Positions 1,085 through 48,730 of a DNA stretch of 64,000 nucleotides are shown here, one piece after another. Positions within the stretch are counted from its first letter, which is position 1, and every line of letters begins with the position of its first letter. The notes beneath the pieces were generated by a model. The model saw only the letters and a program-made list of their open reading frames with translations. It was not told the origin of the DNA and ran no database searches. The stretch spans positions 357,430,001 through 357,494,000 of the forward strand of contig OZ024740.1 in the NCBI GenBank assembly GCA_964016885.1, given 5' to 3'. The DNA comes from Eledone cirrhosa. Lineage: Eukaryota. Position numbers and translations under genes: made by a program.

Positions 1085-1225
1085 GCATGGCTGGGTCGTC
1101 GGCGACCAAACCAGCAACCCCACCAATCTTGCTTGGTCAGGAGGTAATTTTGAACACTCTGCGGGATGAAAAACAAAACCTGTCAAAGGGCAGAGGAGCT
1201 CAGGAGAGTTAACGGCCATCCAACA
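1085..1225 (+). repeat. Fragment of RTE 5'-UTR-like repeat
   Basis: Reverse-complement similarity to 48030-48165 and 48540-48680. Confidence 0.6.
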
Positions 1226-1937
1226 ATTTTTTTGTGGAGCGAGAGACTCCTAGTCATCATTAAAACATCTCTTTTGGTCACTCTGATGAAAAACGTGCGA
1301 GTTTGTTTGTACCCAATGATATAAACCAATTCTTCTTTTGGGGTAAATGCATTCTATGTTCAGAGAGAGGGATTGGCCCTGAGCAAAGCCTTTCCTCACT
1401 TAAAAAAGCTTCAAGCACAGGCATCACTTGATGTGACATTTTTTGCGATACATGGTATTGTTGGCCATATGTAAGTCCCTAGCAGGACTCAAAGCCACGT
1501 CCGTGATGTTCATGCTTAAGTATCAAGCGATGGCATTACTCAAAATCAAGTTGCAGCCATCATATCATCATCATCGTTTAACGTCTATCCTCCACGCTAG
1601 CATGGGTTTATATATGTGTGTGTGTGTGTCCATGTATATACACATGTAGTGGCCAACAGCCATGTCCATATGTATCCATCTTTGGATGAGGATCAGATCA
1701 GATGGCATTAGGAAGGGCATCCAGCCATAGAAACCAAGCCAAAATCAGTTCTGTGTGAGTAAAATTTAGTCCTTCAACCTGGATCTCTCACAACAGGACA
1801 GCCCATCCTACCCATGTTAGCGTGGAAAATGGATGTTAAACGATGATGGTGTGTTTGTGTGTGTGCATTTATATAGTGTCTGAAACACAAAGACTCTCTA
1901 TATCAAGTGTTAAAGTAATATATTTCTTCTTTGCATT

Positions 1938-10637: not shown

Positions 10638-11021
10638 GGAGGCACATGGCTTAGTGGTTAGAGCATTGGCCTTGCAATCAAAAGGTTATGAGTTCAATTC
10701 TCAGACCGGGTGATGTGTTGTTTCCTTGAGCAAGACACTTTATTTCACATTGCTCCAGTTTACTCAGCTGTAGAAATGAGATGATAGGGACTGGGGTCCC
10801 TATCATTCCACTGCAAAGTGGTTGTGGAGGTGCCACGGCAAAAAAAGCACCCAGCCCACACTGTAAAGTGGACGTGTAGGCGCCACAGAAAAAAGCATCC
10901 AGCACTCACTGAAAATGAGGTTGGTGTTAGGAAGGGCATCCAGCTGTAGAAATCAAGCCAGAATCAGTTCCCGTCCCACCCTTGCAAGCAGGGAAAAGTG
11001 GACGTAAAATGATGATGATGA
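10638..11021 (+). mobile_element. Full-length tRNA-derived SINE: head, CORE-like segment, subrepeats, RTE tail
   Basis: A box TGGCTTAGTGG, B box GAGTTCAATTC. The 3' end CCCGTCCCACCCTTGCAAGCAGGGAAAAG(T/C)GGACGTAAAATGATGATG is shared with the LINE at 46035-46630. Confidence 0.9.
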
Positions 11022-32787: not shown

Positions 32788-32828
<41 letters not shown>

Positions 32829-32865
32829 GATATTAAACAAATGGAAACTATATTTATAAAACCAT

Positions 32866-32940
32866 ATTTATTTCATTATACATATTTCAGGGATACCATA
32901 TTAAAAATATGGCATGCCTTCGTCAGATAAAATACAATAT
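32866..32940 (-). ncRNA. Type I hammerhead ribozyme motif in outer 3' pLTR
   Basis: TATTTTAT-CTGACGA-AGGCATGCCATAT(TTTTA)ATATGGTATCCCT-GAAA-TATGTA-TA-ATGAAATA. Confidence 0.8.
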
Positions 32941-33304
32941 ATAAACAGTTTTATAAATAATTTTGACGTACCATAAATATAAGTGACCATTAAGGTAGGA
33001 AGCTGGCTTGGTAGTGAAGTGTTTATAATTATTTAGTTATAGTGTTAAGCACAGTTAGAAAGAAAGACGGAGAGAAAGAAGAAATCTATGTAAAGAAAAA
33101 CAGAGAGAAATAGAGAGAAATAGGAGAGAGAGAAAGAAGGAGGAGGTGAAAAAAGAGAGGCAACCGAAGACAACAGATGAATAATAATAATTCACCATAC
33201 AAATAGAGAGATTTAAGAGAGAGGGAGTACGGTAATTATTTAGTTATAGTGTTAAGCACAGTTAGAGAAGAGACGGAGAGAAAGAAAAAAATGGAGATGA
33301 AGAG

Positions 33305-33358
<54 letters not shown>

Positions 33359-34058
33359 AGGAAAAGAAAGAGGGAGAAAAAATAATAATAATTATATAGG
33401 GAGAGGTGAAAACCAAGAGAGAAATAAGAGAGAAACATGAGAGGCAAAGTCAAAGCGACAGATACATAAACTTCATCATATATAAAGAGAGAGGAGAAGA
33501 AAGAGCTATATCTAGAGAGAGGAGAAGAAAGAGCTATATCTAGAGAGAGGGATGATACAGTTACATCTTTACGTCATGTCCTATCAATTTGAATTATCAA
33601 TTCATATGAACTGGGTAATATAATGTAAATATCAATATTCATGAATGAGACATAGATATATAATGTGTGAAAATAATTTTGCTCAATAATGACCATATGT
33701 TTAGTTTAAAACTCTGAGGTCAATGTACCAAAATCTGAGATAAATCTTCAAAAAAATTACCCTATTTATAAAAATACGGAGATATATATGTATATATATA
33801 TATACGTATATGCACTTTCTGAAAAAAGAAAAAGAGAAAGTTATGTCAAGCTCTAGTCGATAATATAGACATACACATGACTTTACGTGATCAACTCTAT
33901 AATTTCTTATGTCATAAAAAAATTTCCTTGTGTTATAAAAAATTTCACTATATATATATACATAAAAAATAAACGATTAATATTCATGCCCTCACACATA
34001 TGATTATCGTTCATGTATATAATAGTATGCATATCTGTAACATATACAGAACTATACC

Positions 34059-34131
<73 letters not shown>

Positions 34132-34276
34132 TATTTTCCGTTGTGTTGTAATATAAATATTACACACAGTAGATTATCAGCTCACGTAGAGTTTGCTCGA
34201 CGGTTCCAGTTGTAGTTCCAAAAGTAATCCGGAGAAAAATAGAAAGATTTGAATGGATACAGTTTAGTTGAAAGGA

Positions 34277-34401
34277 ATTTATTGACACGTGTTTCTATAA
34301 CAGTTACATAACCTAAAACAGCTGCTATCTACAAACTTTTAGTTATGCAGACATTCAATATTTCAATGTTATTATTTACTGTCATTTCATCAGAATAATA
34401 T
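34277..34401 (-). ncRNA. Hammerhead ribozyme motif (inverted copy, inner PLE)
   Basis: Reverse complement of 37317-37441. Confidence 0.78.
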
Positions 34402-34954
34402 TACTGAGGACCTATTTAGTTTTTATAGAGAATATTAGGAGGGAGGGGTGAAGTTGTTAGAAGAATAGTTGAAGGAGTGGTTTTTCGATAGCAGTGAGAA
34501 TTCTTGGTGGCAGTGAGTAATTAGATTCCCATCTGTTGTTTTGACATTTTTTATAGAATATATTATTGGTTATTTTTCTAAATCTATAGAAGGATTAGAG
34601 ATAGTAAAGATATGCGTGGTTGGTTTTGTGTTTGCACTTAATTAACATTCAGACTTAAATTTTTCTTTCAAGTGTACGTATCCTTTCACCCACGCATTCA
34701 CACACAAATATATTTGCACACCTCTACAAAATACATATACTCACAATTCACATATTCATACTTACATATATATACACATGCATACACATATATATACACA
34801 CATGTATTCATGTACATACATACGCGCTCATGTGTATACATTTTCATACTCAACTTATCTTTATATACACACGTATAGACACACACATATATACATACAT
34901 ACTCTAGTCCATGTGTACACACATACACATACATACACATCTATATACACATAT

Positions 34955-35035
<81 letters not shown>

Positions 35036-35260
35036 CACTTTAATACATGAATACACTTACATCTAACTATACACATCAAACATATATATATATTTACTTA
35101 TTTATATACATTTTCACATATATATTCATACTTATGGACGTTTTTAGACACATTCATTATCGCATATTTGCACCTATTCTCATCAGCATATCTTTCCATT
35201 ATTAGTGTGGTAATTTAAGGTTATTAATATATGTTGAGAAGAGATTGTTTTTATATTTTT

Positions 35261-36383
35261 AAAACTCAATTTAAACTCTGGTTTGATTAAACCGTTTCAT
35301 AAATTGAATGAAAATCTCAAATACGTAAATGTTGGGTCTAACCACCCCATCTCTATAATTAAATCTATCCCTAAAAATATTTCCCTTAGAATCTCGGGTC
35401 TATCTTCTAACATACAAGTATTTAAGGAACACGCCGAGTACTACGATAACGCCCTTAGTAAAGCAGGCTACCTCAACAAAATAGAGTACATAGATGGGAA
35501 CAATCAAAACACCCAAAATAAATCCCACATAGGTAGATATAATAACACAACACCAAACCACACTTACTACCATAGTATGCACACCAGTAAACCAACAAAC
35601 AAAACTAATAGAAAGCGATGCAAAGAGTACTTATGGTATAACCCCGAATACAATAGTTCCATTAGTACAAATTTACCAGTACTCTTCTTTAAAATAATTA
35701 AAAGACATTTTCCTACATCACACAAATACCACAAAATCCTAAACCCTACCACTATAAGACTGTCATACTCTACAGCGTTAAACCTTGAACAACACATAAA
35801 AAAGATCAATACTAGAAGGTTAAACGAAAACACTAAAAACTTAAGTACAAAGAACACAAAAAAAACAGTAGACAATACACTACAGAACATAAATAAACCA
35901 CACCTAAGTTCGTCCGCAATACTACTCCAGAGAAAACCCAACGTACACAACTGTAACTGCACCTATCCTGACAACTGCCCCCTCGGCAATAACTGCCTGG
36001 AAAAAAATATTATTTATAAGTGTACCATTAAATTCGGAGGCAACGAGTGGTATTACGTGGGATCAACGGCAACATCGTTTAAATCTCGATTGTATAGGCA
36101 TTCTTACTCAATAAAACACCAGAGCCAAAGAAATGTAACAACTTTAGCAGAAAAAGCTTGGACGCTCAGGGATAGCGATCAAAAGTTTACCCTAAAATGG
36201 GAGAAATTAGCTAAAACCCAAAGCTTTTCCAGGAGCCAAAATTTCTGCAAATTGTGTAATCTTGAGATTTATTACATAATCACACACAAGAAGAAACTGC
36301 TGAATAACAGAATTGAACGAACATTATTCTGCCGTCACAGAACTAAAACCGTTTTTTCCCACTACAAGCCGAATATTACATAA
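35261..36383 (+). CDS. PLE ORF remnant: RT thumb, linker and GIY-YIG endonuclease (5'-truncated, open)
   Basis: PFHKLNENLKYVNVGSNHP, LWYNPEY, HFP..HKYHKI, CNC..CPLGNNCL, NIIYKC..WYYVGST, FKSRLYRH, CKLCNLE, CRH. Confidence 0.9.
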
Positions 36384-36650
36384 AAGAGGGACATCCCCCA
36401 ACTATATAAACCTTAATCTAGTTAGAAAAATATAAAAACAATCTCTTCTCAACATATATTAATAACCTTAAATTACCACACTAATAATGGAAAGATATGC
36501 TGATGAGAATAGGTGCAAATATGCGATAATGAATGTGTCTAAAAACGTCCATAAGTATGAATATATATGTGAAAATGTATATAAATAAGTAAATATATAT
36601 ATATGTTTGATGTGTATAGTTAGATGTAAGTGTATTCATGTATTAAAGTG

Positions 36651-36763
<113 letters not shown>

Positions 36764-37316
36764 ATATGTGTATATAGATGTGTATGTATGTGTATGTGTG
36801 TACACATGGACTAGAGTATGTATGTATATATGTGTGTGTCTATACGTGTGTATATAAAGATAAGTTGAGTATGAAAATGTATACACATGAGCGCGTATGT
36901 ATGTACATGAATACATGTGTGTATATATATGTGTATGCATGTGTATATATATGTAAGTATGAATATGTGAATTGTGAGTATATGTATTTTGTAGAGGTGT
37001 GCAAATATATTTGTGTGTGAATGCGTGGGTGAAAGGATACGTACACTTGAAAGAAAAATTTAAGTCTGAATGTTAATTAAGTGCAAACACAAAACCAACC
37101 ACGCATATCTTTACTATCTCTAATCCTTCTATAGATTTAGAAAAATAACCAATAATATATTCTATAAAAAATGTCAAAACAACAGATGGGAATCTAATTA
37201 CTCACTGCCACCAAGAATTCTCACTGCTATCGAAAAACCACTCCTTCAACTATTCTTCTAACAACTTCACCCCTCCCTCCTAATATTCTCTATAAAAACT
37301 AAATAGGTCCTCAGTA

Positions 37317-37441
37317 ATATTATTCTGATGAAATGACAGTAAATAATAACATTGAAATATTGAATGTCTGCATAACTAAAAGTTTGTAGATAGCAGCTGT
37401 TTTAGGTTATGTAACTGTTATAGAAACACGTGTCAATAAAT
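37317..37441 (+). ncRNA. Type I hammerhead ribozyme motif with long branched stem II
   Basis: TTATT-CTGATGA(37325)-A-ATGACAGT...ACTGTTAT-A-GAAA-CACGTG-TC(37434)-AATAA, with palindromic stem III. Confidence 0.82.
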
Positions 37442-37473
37442 TCCTTTCAACTAAACTGTATCCATTCAAATCT

Positions 37474-37519
<46 letters not shown>

Positions 37520-38084
37520 ATATATAAGATATCTGCGTGAGTGTTCCAGCATCTCTATGCACACATACAGGCACATGAACAGATAAAATATACTCTGTAA
37601 TCTTTCCATATGCATGTTAATACATATGGCCTTTGTATAGAGATAACCAGATATCAATATATCAGCACAGAAATATCAAAACGTTAAAATATTTTCAACA
37701 GACCCTAGGGTATCTCAGGCCACAAAGACAGTATGCTTCATATATTTACCACAGAAATCTATCCTTCCAATTTTTCAGACAATATATTGCAAAGTTCTTT
37801 AGAAGCAATCAGAATCAAAAAGCAAATAAAAAACCAAAAATTATTTAACAAAAATTATTTAAAGGATTTAGAAGACCCTGTGGTTCTACGGATGCTCTTA
37901 TATTTAGTATAGAAATTTATCTTGCGTAAAATTTATTTAATACATTGGGAGCATCTACATTTTAGAGTAGTTTAATTACATCATTTGTTTATATTTATGA
38001 AGAAGATTTAAAAGAAAAAGTTGAAGGAATCGAAAGATTTATCGTCAGGTTTCATACATTAATTAAATTTCTTAATTAATTATA

Positions 38085-39328
38085 CTACATTTTAAATTTA
38101 TATTTATATTTAAACGTTGAATTCAATCTATGTCTGCAGCAACTGAATAAATTGCTCCTTAGATTAAGGGAATTTTTGGATTTTAATATAAAGAATATCT
38201 CCTCCACACAGAGATCACATGTCTCAGATGAGGAATTAAAAGGAATCCCTCTTGAGACAATATTCCAAAACATCGAGTACCCAACATTATCACGTTTAAG
38301 TTGCCAGAGTAAGCTTGATAGCGAAGTTGAAGATTTTTTGTTTGGATCTGTGAAAGAATTCTTATGATTATTGAAGCGAAGTTTAAATTCTGTCGAGGTG
38401 GAACCAACATAGTTGAAAGAATTTAAGTTAGTTTTAACATTACAATTGTATATTATATTTTTAACTAAGCAATTGTTATTTAACGGACATTTAGATTTAT
38501 TTCTACAGTTACAGTTATTTAATTGAATATTGTTTGGGTTATTATTGGTATTTTGGTTAGGTTTTAAATTCCTATTATTAATTCTGTTAATATTTTGTGC
38601 TAAATGTTTGGTGGACGAGTAAGTTAATTTTATAGTATGTCTATTAAAAATTGAGTAATATTTATGTGTTCTAGGGAAGCGTTTGTCAAGAGCATTAAAG
38701 AATAGTTTAGCAATGTGGGTTTTAATATTTAGTGAGAAAGGAGGGGGGGGGGCAACCATATTATATTTCTAGTTCTATTTCTTTTCCGGCTTTTGGAATT
38801 ATTGTAATGTTTTCTATTATAGTTGTTAATGTTGTTACCGTAATTAAAATTGTTATTATTTTGGTTAGTTTGCTTATTATTATCGATGTACTTAATTTTA
38901 TCACTATATCCTGCTCTAGCTAACGCTTCATTGTAATACTGCGCTTTTTCGTCGAAAATATTTTTATTAGATGAAATTCTTGAGATTCGTTCTTGAACAG
39001 AGTTCACTATAGTATTTTTAACAGATCTGGGGTGATTAGAGTTAAAATTGACATAATTCAAGTTTTCATTTAGTTTGTGAAATGGATAGTGAAGACATGT
39101 GTTGAGATTTAGTGTTACATCTAGGAAATTGACTATTCTATGGTTATTCTCTATTTCTATTTTTAGATTAAGGTAATTAAAAAATTGTATAATTTGTTTT
39201 CTTTTTCTATTTAGTTCAAAGTTATTATTTTCAATAAGTAAAAGCATGTCATCACGATATAATCCTCCGGTTACACCTGGTATTTTTCTATGCAGCGAAT
39301 TAATTATAAATAGGCCCACAAGGTCCGT
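38085..39328 (-). pseudogene. PLE RT (YRDD) and GIY-YIG ORF, 5'-truncated, one frameshift at a homopolymer (~38743-38752)
   Basis: TDLVGLF, GGLYRDDML, VNFLDVTLNL, SNHP, IIW.PPFS, CNCR..CPL..CL, IIYNC..NYVGST, FKLRFNNH, CDLCVEE, CRH. Confidence 0.9.
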
Positions 39329-40150
39329 AAGTGCATATACGTATATATATATATACATATATATCTCCGTATTTTTATAAATAGGGTAATTTTTTGAAGA
39401 TTTATCTCAGATTTTGGTACATTGACCTCAGAGTTTTAAACTAAACATATGGTCATTATTGAGCAAAATTATTTTCACACATTATATATCTATGTCTCAT
39501 TCATGAATATTGATATTTACATTATATTACCCAGTTCATATGAATTGATAATTCAAATTGATAGGACATGACGTAAAGATGTAACTGTATCATCCCTCTC
39601 TCTAGATATAGCTCTTTCTTCTCCCCTCTCTTTATATATGATGAAGTTTATGTATCTGTCGCTTTGACTTTGCCTCTCAAGTTTCTCTCTTATTTCTCTC
39701 TTGGTTTTCACCTCCCCCTATATAATTATTATTATTTTTTCTCCCTTTCGTTTCCTCCCACCTCTCTCTCTCTCTCTCTCTGTTTTCTCTTCATCTCCAT
39801 TTTTTTCTTTCTCTCCGTCTCTTCTCTAACTGTGCTTAACACTATAACTAAATAATTACCGTACTCCCTTTCTCTTAAATCTCTCTATTTGTATGGTGAA
39901 TTATTATTATTCATCTGTTGTCTTCGGTTGCCTCTCTTTTTTCACCTCCTCCTTCTTTCTCTCTCTCCTATTTCTCTCTATTTCTCTCTGTTTTTCTTTA
40001 CATACATTTCTTCTTTCTCTCCGTCTTTCTTTCTAACTGTGCTTAACACTATAACTAAATAATTATAAACACTTCACTACCAAGCCAGTTTCCTACCTTA
40101 ATGGTCGCTTATATTTATGGTACGTCAAAATTATTTATAAAACTGTTTAT

Positions 40151-40226
40151 ATATTGTATTTTATCTGACGAAGGCATGCCATATTTTTAATATGGTATTC
40201 CTGAAATATGTATAATGAAATAAATA
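40151..40226 (+). ncRNA. Hammerhead ribozyme motif (inverted copy, outer PLE)
   Basis: CTGACGA at 40165, GAAA at 40203, stem I TATTTTAT/ATGAAATA. Confidence 0.8.
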
Positions 40227-40350
40227 TGGTTTTATAAATATAGTTTCCATTTGTTTAATATCGTATATCTACTCCAAAAACTTGTCGAGTGCTTTATTTC
40301 GGTTATAAAATATTTACTTGTTGTAACCCAACAATTTTAAATAAAACTTT

Positions 40351-40399
<49 letters not shown>

Positions 40400-41580: not shown

Positions 41581-44500
41581 GTCTTTCCAAAAGCTACTAC
41601 ATTGACCTCTGCTCCTTGGTATAGGCTAATTTCATACCACCTCTTCTTAGGCATTCTCAATCCCTTTGTCTCTCCATCTTTTGACATCTATATTGTATCT
41701 CCCCTCACAGGCTCTAACAACCATGCCCAGTCTTCAGTACCCAGAACATCAGCCCTCTGGAATTCCCATGCCTTAAGTGTTTCCTGCAAGTGTTGACAAC
41801 TATCTGTTCAAAAGAAGCATTAATAACAGTGACTTCACTAGTCTCAGAAAACCTGTGAATCTTATGAGCTTTTTGTTAGATATGCTAACTTCTTGCTGTT
41901 AGCTAACATTTTCCAATCTTTGCTTTTACTTTATTGAACTCTGTTGATATAGACCACCATTAATACTATTTCACTCATAATCGTGAATTTAAGGTAGCTG
42001 TAATTCCTGGTCTTTATATTAACCTGCAAAAATATTAATTGGTTTGATGGCGATTCTAGCTCCTCATTTAAATTAACCAACACAGCTAACACGTGTTACG
42101 CATTCCTGTACAATATTTTGCATTTAATTAGTAATTCTTTTATCACTATTCCAGCATGTACAGTGAAGTACATTTCATGATAAGGTTAATAAGAATGAAA
42201 CATGCCAAATGTTGTCTCCCATATTTGACAAAAGGATTACATTTTTTGTCACTAAACTAATGTTTTTCTCCCAATACATGGTTCAATGAAATAGATCCAC
42301 TATTTGAATTAAAATTTTTCAATAAGAACCTTTTGTTAAATTTTGTTACAAATATTATTGTCATAATGAAGTAATTAATATTTTTAGTCAATCCCCAAAA
42401 TTCTTACATTGATTAATTCAAATTAAGGCAGTGGATTGGCAGTACCAGTAGAGAGTCGGACACCATGTTTGCAGCATAGAGTTATGGCCCTTTACGTTCT
42501 GGGTTAAAATCCCGCCAAGATTAACTTTGCCTTTCATCCTTATGGGGTCTATGAAATAAAACACCAGTAATGCACTGGGGTTATGGCTGGCCTTGTGCCA
42601 AAAGCCGAAACAATTAATTAATTCAAATAGAGTGTATTTCCTAAGAAATACAGTTATGAAAAGCTTAAATATATTAATATAATACAAACCCCCAGTTTTC
42701 CTGATGCAACATGTTGACTGAATAATTTGTTATTTATTAATATTTTTATTTGTTTTATAATAATTATACCAGTGTATTGATTTACATTTTACTATATATC
42801 TAATTGTCATTTGCCTCATGCTATTTTGTCAACTTATCTAGGACTGTCATCACACAAGACTGAATCATATATATTTATGAGTAATCCAAACTTACGTCAA
42901 TAAAGAAATATTCAGGTCAGTCTTATAGTTCATTATTTCTCCTTTTCTTCTGACTGTGCTCAATAAAATTAGTATGTATGGAGCGTAGTTGAGATGAAAG
43001 TCAATCAATGCCCACATAACACTATAAAATTTCTGAATTCTGCCATAACTAGTACAAAGTCCAAAATTAATAAAGATCATCTGATGCGGGTATGTCAAAG
43101 TTTCAGACATTGTTCTGAAACAGTCATCAAGGATAATGGCTGATTCATTGAATAGTTGCATCAAGAAGAGTTTCAAATAAACTTCCTTTCTTTCATGACT
43201 TATGTGTCTTTATTAAATTCATGCAAATGTCCTCAAATAACTAAGCAACCCTGAAATATGACCACTACAATAACTACCTATATCATGAACAGAGAAATAT
43301 TGTTGAATAATGCTTAACATAACCTAGTTACCACTTAAACATGCTGCTGTTAGGTATATTCATTATCCAATGTATTTGTTACATGTTATTTGAGAGAGAT
43401 TTGGTTGCTATTTAAAGCAGGTTGAACTACCACACAGAAGCACCTTGATTGATTGAAGATTTTCCCCAGATTTAAAATGGCCATGTAGTAACTACCTCGA
43501 AATAAAAAGTATACATCATATAAATGTGTGTCATAACAAATTCTCTTATATTTCTACTTGAAAGCAGAAACTGTTCTCTATTAATAATTTCTTTTCTTAT
43601 TATTTGTTCTATTCAAATTTGTGAGAGAAATTTTTTTTCCCATGGCAAAAAATATTCTTTTGTTCACACCAAAACATAAAGTTGCTGGATCAACTTTTCT
43701 GCACTTTACTACCACTAACGCCAATTTCACTTATCAAGCTATCTATTTTTATAATTTTTAGTTTTTCTTTTACATTTTTATTTATTTATCTATTTATTTA
43801 ATTGAACATTGGCATAAGACTGCAAGTGTGTGATAGCATACATGATTTAGTAAGTAAAGATATTTTGATTAATTAAAATAACAACGTTAGTAATGAGAAC
43901 AATCATTATCTAAATGACTATGGCTGTATAATTAAGGAGTTCAGTTTGAAGTCGTCCCATGGTTTCAGGTTCACTCTTACTGACTTGCACCTTGGGTGCC
44001 AATCTTCTACAGCAGGCTCAGGTTGACCAATGGGTTGTGAGTGAAATTTGGTAGGTGGAAGCTGCAGAAATCTGTTGTACTATCACCATCATCATCTCCA
44101 TCATCATCACTGTTTAACGTTTATTTTCTATGCTTGCATGATTTAGATAGGTTGTTATGTTATGAGATAAGTCAGGTCAGGTAACCCATCTGTATTTTGG
44201 TTTAGTTTCTACAACTGGATACCCTTCCTAATGCCAACCATGTTACAATGTGGACTGAGTGCTTTTTACCAAAATGACCATCCAACAGAGTGGACTGAGT
44301 GCTTTTTCATCAAGTCACCAGCACAAACACCTTACAGGGTAGACTGGGTGCTTTTTTGTGTCACCAACAAGACTGCCTTACAGGATGGACTGGGTACTCT
44401 GTTGTTGTGGCACCAGATCACCTAACAGAGTGGATTTTGCCTTTTTTGTATGCATGGTTTCACAGGAGAAGTGTATCAGGGGTGAGGAGTGAGAGTTGGA

Positions 44501-45045: not shown

Positions 45046-45104
45046 TATGTATAGAATAAGGAAAAGCGAAGTAGTTTCAGATGTTCAAGTCCTTTAATAA
45101 TAAT

Positions 45105-45179
45105 GCTGTGATATATATTTCAATGACGACACTGGCCACACTGTTCTGTGTGCGAGTGTCGTGACATCATCAGACAGCT
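45105..45179 (-). ncRNA. Type I hammerhead ribozyme motif
   Basis: GCTGT-CTGATGA-TGTCACGACACT...AGTGTCGTCATT-GAAA-TATATA-TC-ACAGC. Confidence 0.8.
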
Positions 45180-46034
45180 TGTTACATAATAAGGTTATGT
45201 TTCTGAGGCAATCCAAATTGAATCGACATGGGAACGGATGAAGTGTGTGCTTTTGGGTTCTTCATCCGTTCCCCTGTGAGTACCAATTCACCCCCACCGG
45301 TCTGCGCAGGCGCATGTCCGAAGGAAGTTGACCATTAGCTACCGCAGATTTCAACGAAATTCGCTTAGTCAGTTCACCCTCTCAGCCAAACAATGGCCCA
45401 CCTAGGCCTGTACCATAGTTTACTGCTACCCATCCCGACTGTGGCAGTCAGCCGAAAGCCAGAGGGGATGGGAGAGTGTTAGTTTTTACAGGTCACAATA
45501 CCTCTCACCAAGCGTGGACAGTATGACTGACCATCAGCTCATAAGAGAAAATAAACTTAATTCTAGGTATCATGGTTTTACATTGGAAGTTAAGAGTGAG
45601 AGTTGGAAATAAAAATTAAAATCCTAAATCAAATATCAGAAATTATAAATTAAACAATTAAAAAGTTAACAATTGGAAATTAAAAAATTTTTCAAGTGAG
45701 AATCCGGATTGAGGTGAGTAAAAAAATATAGATTGAAGTGAGTAAATAATATGGAGAGAGATATTTAAGTAAGAAGTTCTGAGAGGGGTTCTAATGTCAC
45801 AGTTACTCTATCCACATATTGAACGACAGTACCGTACATTAGAATGGAGGGTAAACTACAGTATTCAAGGCAGTAGTCAATCTGGTACACAGTCATAATT
45901 TCCATCTCATGGAACAAAACCAAAGAAAAACAGACATAAAGTACACAAAAGAAAAGAACCAATAATGAATAAATGCAAAAACACAGAGTACATATATGCA
46001 AAATGATCCATATGATTGTCAATCTGTTTATGTC

Positions 46035-46630
46035 ATCATAATCATCATCATCATTTTACGTCCGCTTTTCCCTGCTTGCAAGGGTGGGACGGGTCTTATT
46101 CAGCACAGCATCTCTCCACTCGTCACGGTCCCTCGTCATCTCCACCGTGAGCTTCAATGATCTGAGGTCTGTTCTCACTACCTCCACCCATGTTTTTCGT
46201 GGTCTACCTCTACCACGTCTTCCTTCAACTGGCAATTCCTGGCACTTCTTCACCCATCGGTCATCCTCCATGCACATCACATGTCCATACCACCTCAGTC
46301 TCCTCTCCCGTACACTACATTCTATCCCTCTCAGACACAGTTTCTCTCTCAACACATTTATGCTGGGTCGTTCATGCACATTTACACTGCACATCCAACG
46401 GAGCATGCTTGCCTCATTTCTCTCCAGCCGTCACATATCCTCTGCAGTTGCTGCCCATGTCTCACTACCATGCAGCATCGCGCTCCTCACACAGGCATCA
46501 TACAACCGGCCTTTCATACGCAGGGAGAAACCCTTCTTCGTCAACAGAGGAAGCAGCTCCCTAAACTTCTTCCAACCCGTCCTTATTCTAGATACTATGG
46601 CCTCGGAACACCCTCCTCCCATGCTAATCT
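46035..46630 (-). mobile_element. 5'-truncated RTE LINE inside the hammerhead element
   Basis: GGGCSEAIVSRIRTGWKKFRELLP...RRLRWYGHV...GRPRKTW with one internal stop; (ATG)n tail. Confidence 0.92.
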
Positions 46631-46999
46631 GATGTATAGATTGAATTGAGGGGGCTTCTGTTCAAATGCGATTTGGTGCAGGAAAATAGGGGTTTATCTT
46701 AGTTTTTGTTTCCGCTTATTTATCCTGCCGAAAGTTATTATTATGTCCGTCCAGTGTCAGGGGTTTCCATCCCCATGGTAGAGGGAATTTCCAGGGGTAG
46801 CTCATGGTTGGTTCCTCTCTTCTCCACCATATCGGTTACATCATAGAGCGCTCAACTAATTGGAGCTAAATTATTAGGGTAAACATTGATGCAATTCAAT
46901 TCAAGCACTCAACGTACTTTTTCCACATAGGAGTGACGGAGTAAATATCGATAAGGAAAAGCGAAGTAGTTTCAGATGTTCAAGTCCTTTAATAATAAT

Positions 47000-47074
47000 G
47001 CTGTGATATATATTTCAATGAGGACACTGGCCACACTGTTCTGTGTGCGAGTGTCGTGACATCATCAGACAGCT
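47000..47074 (-). ncRNA. Type I hammerhead ribozyme motif (second tandem copy, one stem II change)
   Basis: Same motif as 45105-45179. Confidence 0.78.
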
Positions 47075-47760
47075 TGTTACATAATAAGGTTATGTTTCTG
47101 AGGCAATCCAAATTGAATCGACATGGGAATGGATGAAGTGTGTGCTTTTGGGTTCTTCATCCGTTCCCCTGTAAGTACCAATTCACCCCTACCGGTCTGC
47201 GCAGGCGCATGTCCGACCATTAGCTACCGCAGAAGTTGACCATTAGCTACCGCAGATTTCAACGAAATTCGCTTAGTCAGTTCACCCTCTCAGCCAAACA
47301 ATGACCCACCTAGGCCTGTACCATAGTTTACTGCTACCCATCCCGACTGTGGCAGTCAGCCGAAAGCCAGAGGGGATGGGAGAGTGTTAGTTTTTACAGG
47401 TCACAATACTACCTCTCACCAAGCGTGGACAGTATGACTGACCATCAACTCATAAGAGAAAATAAACTTAATTCTAGGTATCATGGTTTTACATTGGAAG
47501 TTAAGAGTGAGAGTTGGAAATAAAAATTAAAATCCTAAATCAAATATCAGAAATTATAAATTAAACAATTAAAAAATTAACAATTGGAAATTAAAAAATT
47601 TTTCAAGTGAGAGTCCGGATTGAGGTGAGTAAAAAAATATAGATTGGGGGTGAATTGGTACTCACAGGGGAACGGATGAAGAACCCAAAAGCACACACTT
47701 CATCCGTTCCCATGTCGATTCATTTGGATTGCCTCGGAAACATAACCTTATTATGTAACA

Positions 47761-47835
47761 AGCTGTCTGATGATGTCACGACACTCGCACACAGAACAGT
47801 GTGGCCAGTGTCGTCATTGAAATATATATCACAGC
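47761..47835 (+). ncRNA. Type I hammerhead ribozyme motif (inverted copy)
   Basis: CTGATGA 47767, GAAA 47819, predicted cleavage after C47830, stem I GCTGT/ACAGC. Confidence 0.8.
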
Positions 47836-48029
47836 ATTATTATTAAAGGACTTGAACATCTGAAACTACTTCGCTTTTCCTTATTCGATATTTACTCCGT
47901 CACTCCTATGTGGAAAAAGTACGTTGAGTGCTTGAATTGAATTGCATCAATGTTTACCCTTATATATATATATATATATATACACATATATACACATGCA
48001 TACATGTATATACATATTTACACATTTTT

Positions 48030-48730
48030 GGATGGCCGTTGACTTTTATGAATTCTTACGCCCTTTGTCAGGTTTTATTTTTTGTCCTGCAGGGTGTCCA
48101 AAATCACCCTCCTCACCAAGTGAACTTGGTAGGGTTGCCGTTTAGTCGCCGACAACCCAACTATGTGACTGGTTGTACTGGGTTACATGTTATAAGTAGT
48201 ACTCAAGAGTAACCCAACATACATACATGATGGCTGTATCCTCATTAGATGATCATGACCATCATTAACAGGGAGTCACCAATGCCTGTGCAAGGGTTTT
48301 AAGTCAAGTGTGGCTTGCACAACACTACAATGACTCTCACTAGTAATGCCAAGTTAGCCTAGAGACAAGAAAAGTGCAAAATATCAGGTTCAGTAGTGCA
48401 GTGGGTTTTATATACGAGTTAGTCTTCTCCTAGAGGAATGCCTTCACAAAGACTAGGAGTCCATCATTCCCAGTGAGCTTACTGTGCCCTTGGACACTAG
48501 CCTAAGTGTTTCTACAACTCAGTATATGTACATACTATTGGATGGCCATTGACTCTTATGAGCTCCTTTGCCCTTTTAGGGGTTTTATTTTTCATCCCAT
48601 GGAATGTCCAATATCACCCTCCGCACCAAGCTAGCTTGGTGGAGTTGCCTGTTTAGTTACTGCTGACCCAACTATGTGACAGGATGTACTGGGTTACATG
48701 TTACCAGTAACACTTACAGATGACCCGAAA
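48030..48730 (-). repeat. Two copies of an RTE 5'-UTR-like repeat (48030-48215, continuing at 44830-44990; and 48400-48730)
   Basis: Mutual similarity. Contains CTAGGAGAAGGCAACTC, resembling the RTE leader motif. The first copy is split by the (TA)n/PLE insertion. Confidence 0.6.

What the first reader, a model, noticed from the sequence alone, without database searches (positions are those of the whole stretch)
45056..47959. Protein-free, triple-hammerhead Penelope derivative: candidate large retrozyme / circular RNA system
Seen: two ~690 bp direct repeats and a partial inverted copy, each with a hammerhead core (CUGAUGA, GAAA, AUC, 5-bp stem I, palindromic UAUAUA stem III), bounded by (TA)n, with no RT or endonuclease ORF. 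The two same-strand cleavage sites (45110, 47005) are 1895 nt apart, or ~1.3 kb if the RTE is removed. Known: Penelope-like elements carry hammerheads in their pLTRs, and retrozymes are non-autonomous hammerhead retroelements that yield circRNAs, with metazoan ones usually only a few hundred nt. Inference: a non-coding parasite of the Naiad-type machinery that could release a >1 kb self-cleaved monomer or circle. The 10.1-11.1 pair is U-U, so activity is not guaranteed.
Basis: partly seen in the sequence, partly recalled or inferred. Interest (0 to 1): 0.75.

Follow-up and report, generated by a model that had tools for sequence, protein, structure and literature searches.

The report
Large hammerhead retrozyme with Penelope ends
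This is one copy of an abundant, protein-free 1.3-kb mobile repeat with a hammerhead-ribozyme motif, two fixed ends and a small hairpin signal shared with Hydra-type Penelope jumping genes, whose enzymes likely copy it from an RNA that may be circular.

Summary
There are three hammerhead cores, two direct repeats, an inverted arm and (TA)n flanks. The 598-bp RTE piece is a later insertion, so the true unit is about 1.3 kb. It is one copy of a young family: 1,564 exact core matches genome-wide, several subfamilies, compensatory changes in stem II, and no similarity to six Penelope proteins tested. Insertions end at two fixed sites, about 56 and 133 nt past the predicted cut; 49 of 52 two-armed copies use one of each. 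A bulged hairpin follows each site and recurs at both ends of an intact Hydra-clade Penelope family, but not at the Neptune or 1,270-aa-family ends tested. So Hydra, not Naiad, is the likely helper. Arms run through the cut site (97 of 108), which fits a circle or uncut RNA. Against an obligatory circle: DNA-level unit duplications exist, and one copy has a dead ribozyme at both sites. Cleavage, expression and circularity are untested. The proposed junction-read test cannot discriminate, because that junction is genomic. The kind is published (retrozymes as non-autonomous Penelope derivatives, units up to 972 bp). This scan had already noted the two-arm rule and twin hairpins in smaller families on other DNA of this genome.

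The parts
45054..47960 (.). Whole two-armed insertion between (TA)n runs: main arm on - (short end at 45054, about 1,980 template nt without the RTE) and inverted arm on + (long end at 47960, about 317 nt)
45054..45735 (-). Terminal pseudo-LTR copy, ending at the short end 56 nt past the predicted cut
45105..45178 (-). Hammerhead 1 (type I, palindromic minimal stem III); predicted cut after 45110
45230..45274 (-). Strong hairpin upstream of the hammerhead (45196-45296 folds at z -3.99); copies at 47125-47169 (-) and 47667-47711 (+); role unknown
45303..45316 (-). GC-rich motif resembling an NRF1-type promoter site (resemblance recalled, untested); second copy 47198-47211
   Evidence: name from recall
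45736..46033 (-). Non-coding body of the unit, part 1
46034..46631 (-). Secondary insertion: truncated 3' end of a LINE (RTE type by recall of its peptide and ATG-repeat tail), specific to this copy
46632..46870 (-). Non-coding body, part 2; within the first 400 nt after the cut, which differ by only 1-4% between subfamilies A and B
46850..46866 (-). Bulged hairpin GCTC-loop-TT-GAGC just past the long end (+141)
46907..46942 (-). Bulged hairpin ACTC-loop-TT-GAGT just past the short end (+65); second copy 47894-47929 (+)
46871..46950 (-). 'Tail' of about 76-80 nt between the two fixed ends (internal copy)
46951..47646 (-). Internal pseudo-LTR copy, 5'-truncated at unit position 676
47000..47073 (-). 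Hammerhead 2; predicted cut after 47005; private change in stem II
47645..47960 (+). Inverted arm from unit position 1111 across the cut to the long end (+130)
47762..47835 (+). Hammerhead 3; predicted cut after 47830

Best explanation
This is one insertion of an abundant, protein-free 1.3-kb repeat with a conserved hammerhead fold and two fixed ends, which is likely mobilised in trans by a Hydra-clade Penelope reverse transcriptase-endonuclease that would nick both strands of a (TA)n run and start copying at two hairpin-marked sites, one per strand, on an RNA that is continuous across the ribozyme site, most likely a re-read unit-length template such as a circle. Shown: copy number, no ORF, the two ends, the one-of-each rule, (TA)n target, shared hairpins, arms crossing the cut, homogeneous repeats within an insertion. 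Inferred, with odds: Hydra partner about 0.75; a unit-length template re-read (circle or end-to-end jump) about 0.55; hammerhead cleavage in vivo, probably as a dimer or protein-assisted, about 0.55; transcription from a promoter in the repeat, untested.
For: 1,564 exact core matches, reversed-pattern control 0; best 42 of 2,254 candidates 98-100% identical. Of 149 termini mapped, 76 short, 68 long, 5 other; 139 of the 144 abut a microsatellite; 49 of 52 two-armed insertions have one short and one long end, none two of a kind, 3 unclassifiable. Contigs of four public runs (one study) show TA-repeat loose ends at both sites. Stem II over 31 distinct hammerheads: 88.8% of cells paired, 17 double-sided changes against 5.9 shuffled. 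The hairpin occurs only twice in the unit, at +65 and +141 (about 0.002 per end by shuffling); the same motif sits 7 and 9 nt past both ends of an intact family with RWK, DKT and CxCX5C motifs. 97 of 108 arms cross the cut, 16 twice. Terminal and internal repeats disagree at 53 of 762 variable sites, opposite arms at 72 of 1,035, different loci at 26-38%. Three-copy insertions are symmetric: 32, 25, 27 odd sites in 1,695. Two-site start and two-strand extension are shown in vitro for Poseidon_Ac (PMC11167929).
Against: No autonomous element sharing the repeat was found: blastn against 50 GIY-YIG loci gave only a neighbouring family copy and a 29-nt chance hit; none in 15 loci of the 1,270-aa family or 10 Hydra loci; no ORF was found joined to older relatives. 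The partner rests on a short motif in one Hydra family, against three ends of two other families. In 2 of 22 same-arm pairs the units are near-identical (0.2%), so DNA-level duplication makes arrays and could homogenise linear sources. In L124 a SINE piece destroys the ribozyme at both sites. Four of 81 single-crossing arms stop 6-27 nt short of the second cut. Main arms were selected by queries spanning the cut or body. Two of five covariation measures do not beat shuffles, and sequences are related. The lowest-energy fold buries the core. PAc copying does not need its ribozyme in vitro; PLE hammerheads cleave weakly; 8 of 9 Xenopus dimers did not cleave.
Confidence: 0.6

Rival explanations
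1. Same non-autonomous Penelope derivative, but copied from linear uncut read-through RNA of tandem source loci; arrays and repeat homogeneity come from unequal crossover and conversion, and the hammerhead is incidental to copying.
For: Recent DNA-level unit duplications in L027 and L125, and a two-unit periodicity in the L052 array; dead ribozyme at both sites in L124; uncut RNA is the main substrate for PAc in vitro and no reads ended at its cut.
Against: No separate upstream and downstream repeat lineages: the only allele biases are at the TA junctions; symmetric triplets; 5' ends of twice-crossing arms spread from 228 to 1178 with no pile-up; ribozyme core kept across lineages 70-85% alike.
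Confidence: 0.3
2. The helper is a Neptune (or Naiad) element rather than Hydra.
For: Several Neptune-like families with long open frames insert in (TA)n here; Naiads also prefer (TA)n.
Against: The one Neptune end tested and both ends of the 1,270-aa family lack the hairpin; Naiads lack canonical hammerheads; no shared sequence.
Confidence: 0.08
3. A one-off decayed autonomous element or chance motif.
For: No Rfam hammerhead match.
Against: Thousands of copies with the same unit; no PLE protein similarity in 25 complete units at E<=0.05; covariation.
Confidence: 0.02

Closest known systems
Metazoan non-LTR retrozymes (Cervera and de la Pena 2020, PMC7229834: part 2 of 6, section 14 and passages seen; Li, Clavereau and Pollet 2026, 10.64898/2026.07.22.740005: parts 1-3 of 5 seen, supplements closed; review PMC7761336: passages)
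   Same: Non-coding, type I hammerhead once per unit, monomers to arrays, GC under 45% (38.7%), proposed PLE mobilisation.
Hydra-clade Penelope-like elements (Craig et al. 2021, PMC8557442: sections 10, 11 and passages seen)
   Same: (TA)n target, hammerhead, tandem plus inverted arms, one-sided tail; twin hairpins shared with the Hydra family of this genome.
   Different: No ORF and no alignable sequence; tail about 76-80 nt against the 30-40 bp given for PLEs.
Poseidon_Ac two-site internal initiation (Frangieh et al. 2024, PMC11167929: parts 1-2 of 4 seen)
   Same: Two start sites 3' of the hammerhead define the tail; both strands extended; AT-rich target.
   Different: Autonomous, other clade; starts in an AC-rich stem-loop inside the ORF; the one-of-each rule was not in the parts read.
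Non-autonomous Chlamys PLEs such as MRC1 (PMC8557442 section 10) and trans-mobilised pLTR-flanked DNA in Adineta vaga (PMC3846280, passages)
   Same: ORF-less, pseudo-LTR-forming, head-to-tail copies moved in trans.
   Different: Those resemble their autonomous partner at the 3' end, and most Chlamys lack hammerheads; here only a structural signal is shared.

Membership tests
Metazoan non-LTR retrozyme | Type I hammerhead in every repeat unit | tested here: met
   no Rfam model matched
Metazoan non-LTR retrozyme | Non-coding, tandem units with at least two consecutive hammerheads | tested here: met
Metazoan non-LTR retrozyme | Small unit (150-450 bp; up to 972 bp reported) | tested here: not met
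   25 complete units of 1,262-1,347 nt (extraction window 1,200-1,420)
Metazoan non-LTR retrozyme | Highly self-paired RNA | tested here: not met
   only a local hairpin is significant
Metazoan non-LTR retrozyme | Self-cleavage and circular RNA in tissue | not testable with these tools
   needs bench work or raw RNA reads
Non-autonomous Penelope-like element | Partial-tandem pseudo-LTR, inverted arm, 5' truncation, one-sided tail | tested here: met
Non-autonomous Penelope-like element | Sequence shared with an autonomous partner | tested here: inconclusive
   none in the loci examined; only a small part of about 10,600 GIY-YIG candidates was seen
Hydra-dependent element | (TA)n target and canonical hammerhead | tested here: met
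Hydra-dependent element | Same end signal as an intact Hydra family (feature from earlier scan notes, not from a paper) | tested here: met
Hydra-dependent element | Mobilisation by Hydra protein | not testable with these tools
   needs an in vitro assay
Naiad derivative | No canonical hammerhead | tested here: not met
Plant LTR retrozyme | Type III hammerhead, true LTRs, 4-bp target duplication | tested here: not met
   type I fold and variable repeat length; definition

The most novel reading that the evidence does not exclude
A 1.3-kb non-coding RNA circle, larger than any animal retrozyme in the papers read, is closed at its hammerhead and copied round by a Hydra enzyme dimer that recognises only two portable bulged hairpins, so any RNA carrying them could be inserted into (TA)n sites.
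Probability: 0.3. Interest if true: 0.75.

Novelty: new variant of a known kind. Interest (0 to 1): 0.5.

Why it matters
How Penelope elements make their pseudo-LTRs, inverted arms and one-sided tails, and what their hammerhead does, is open in the papers read. A protein-free 1.3-kb passenger that shares only two small hairpins with an intact Hydra family isolates the likely cis signal. It gives a defined substrate for testing two-site initiation and circular against linear templates. It also shows that searches capped at a 1-kb period miss large retrozyme-like families.

Tried and rejected
Rfam: no hammerhead hit. Sequencing runs: no RNA holder listed; the four runs laid are contigs of unknown kind from one study and say nothing on expression. 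RNA-editing scar: no A-to-G excess among 47 rare variants shared by both arms (6 A>G) or 30 shared along an arm (6 A>G). My first guess of a Neptune helper was dropped. The very active 1,270-aa PLE family has two ends but neither the hairpin nor shared sequence. Hydra ORF pieces beside older relatives are separated by TA runs or point the other way. The first SINE control was faulty and was redone. In one search the automatic short-end lookup for this element and the count of short-end hairpin variants failed; the +65 position comes from the whole-unit scan and the end. No target-site duplication could be read in the TA runs. A look-up of earlier findings by this sequence gave nothing, nor by place nearby. 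Paper searches listed no paper on cephalopod retrozymes or a Hydra end hairpin; the library lacks most subscription papers, and the preprint's supplements were closed. Lunse 2017 on dimeric PLE hammerheads was seen only as a cited title.

Full report
Observation. The repeats, the three hammerhead cores, their spacing and the (TA)n flanks are as described. The element reads on the minus strand. The 598-bp LINE piece at 46034-46631 is missing from the other copies that span the site, and the natural period is 1,297 nt. The insertion probably split an older repeat: both flanks match an uninterrupted neighbour at about 48416-48709 at 79-82%. Rfam finds no hammerhead here, so the ribozyme call rests on motif, fold and comparison.

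Family. A query across the first hammerhead drew 2,254 candidates, and the 42 reported matches are 98-100% identical; a body query drew 1,444. The exact core pattern occurs 1,564 times, control 0. Complete units differ by 2-9% within subfamily A and 8-14% from subfamily B. Older lineages C and D align at about 70-90% near the hammerhead and keep ends of the same kind. No unit of 25 matches any of six PLE proteins taken from this genome. The first 400 nt after the cut differ by 1-4% between A and B, against up to 22% in the body, which suggests a constrained cis region or exchange between subfamilies.

Hammerhead. Over 31 distinct copies from A, B and C, stem I is 98.7% paired, stem II 85.3% with four pairs changed on both sides, and stem III is two pairs with a palindromic loop. 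Three of five measures beat all 500 shuffles and two do not; relatedness inflates such counts. The 10.1-11.1 pair is G-U in 6 of 31 and non-standard, mostly U-U, in 25. PMC3088659 (passage) reports natural U10.1-U11.1 hammerheads and calls it the best-tolerated mismatch. The palindrome fits dimer activity as described for PLE hammerheads, which cleave weakly in vitro (PMC4209133, parts 1-2 of 4). The computed lowest-energy fold pairs part of the core. Activity is therefore plausible, not shown.

Ends. Copies end at about +56 or +133 from the cut, nearly always on a microsatellite. In 52 two-armed insertions 49 have one end of each kind, none has two of a kind, and 3 could not be classed. The window copy follows the rule. 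This is the Penelope tail, which PMC8557442 describes as 30-40 bp at one end and PMC11167929 explains as the stretch between two internal start sites of an enzyme that nicks and extends both strands. Six long-end arms stop at +34 to +54, near the other start site, which may mean both primings sometimes share one RNA (inference).

Partner. I first expected Neptune. Earlier notes of this scan pointed to a twin bulged hairpin in Hydra elements, and I tested it. The motif CTC-pair-loop-pair-NN-GAG occurs exactly twice in the unit, at +65 and +141, about 8-10 nt past each end; shuffles give about 0.002 per end. An intact family (785-aa frame; RWK, DKT and CxCX5C motifs, meeting the Hydra description) has the same motif 7 and 9 nt past its two ends. 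One Neptune end and both ends of a 1,270-aa family lack it. No sequence is shared with Hydra beyond this, and no ORF-bearing relative was found. Naiad is unlikely.

Template. 97 of 108 arms cross the cut, 16 twice. Of the 11 that do not, seven are long-end arms stopping at +34 to +94, and at least three of the four short-end cases are breaks in my chaining caused by insertions. Main arms were selected to cross; companion arms were not. So the template is continuous at the ribozyme: uncut or rejoined. Repeats within an insertion share rare variants at 30 of 8,248 (same arm) and 47 of about 11,000 (opposite arms) sites, against 0.00006 between loci. They agree equally at subfamily sites, with no separate upstream and downstream lineages, and triplets are symmetric. 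This fits one unit re-read each cycle, the circle model that PMC4209133 proposed. It is not proof. Units in L027 and L125 are 0.2% apart, so DNA-level duplication also builds arrays. L124 has the ribozyme destroyed at both sites, which a ribozyme-closed circle cannot give but a template jump or gene conversion can.

Comparison. It works like a metazoan non-LTR retrozyme and a non-autonomous PLE, a link proposed in PMC7229834 and argued in the 2026 preprint. It fails the size and self-pairing features of retrozymes and cannot be tested for circles. The scan has noted the two-arm rule and hairpins in 310-600-nt families elsewhere in this genome but not this sequence. That the host is a cephalopod comes from those notes and was not tested.

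Verdict. Real, and a new large variant of a known kind. The anatomy is well shown, the Hydra helper is likely, and the circular RNA is about even odds. Interest 0.5.

Noticed in passing
5-20 nt past the hammerhead cut in family copies, e.g. L033:6144-6346: A roughly 190-nt SINE-like repeat has inserted at the ATTATTATT tract in 19 of 120 hammerhead sites, always in the same sense and mostly with different 5' junctions, against 0 of 39 at another ATT tract of the unit (p 0.004). Probably target preference; capture during copying is not excluded.
   Followed up: partly
window 32828-40353: A second, unrelated two-armed hammerhead element (cuts at 32877 - and 40214 +) with short and long ends on (TA)n and the same bulged hairpin 8 nt past its short end.
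   Followed up: partly
window about 34130-37479: Truncated two-armed Hydra-clade element nested inside the element above; its family has many intact 785-aa frames.
   Followed up: partly
L178:2868 to L177:4894 (G000 C1 about 130.88-130.89 Mb): A 12-kb two-armed array of this family with eight complete units, partly made by DNA-level duplication.
   Followed up: partly
L087:6720-7420, L096:7750-8850, L047:5900-6520: Other tandem hammerhead units of 459, about 500 and 525 nt; the 459-nt one shares stem I and an upstream motif with this family.
   Followed up: no
L195-L209: A very young Penelope-like family with a 1,270-aa frame, two fixed ends about 60 nt apart and no bulged hairpin; clade not determined.
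   Followed up: no
L086:2480-2510 (-): A Neptune-like family carries the U3-A8 core variant of the hammerhead, a variant described in PMC4209133.
   Followed up: no
window 44236-44447: Five degenerate 32-nt repeats spaced 40-49 nt; similar arrays near 10809 and 41000.
   Followed up: no
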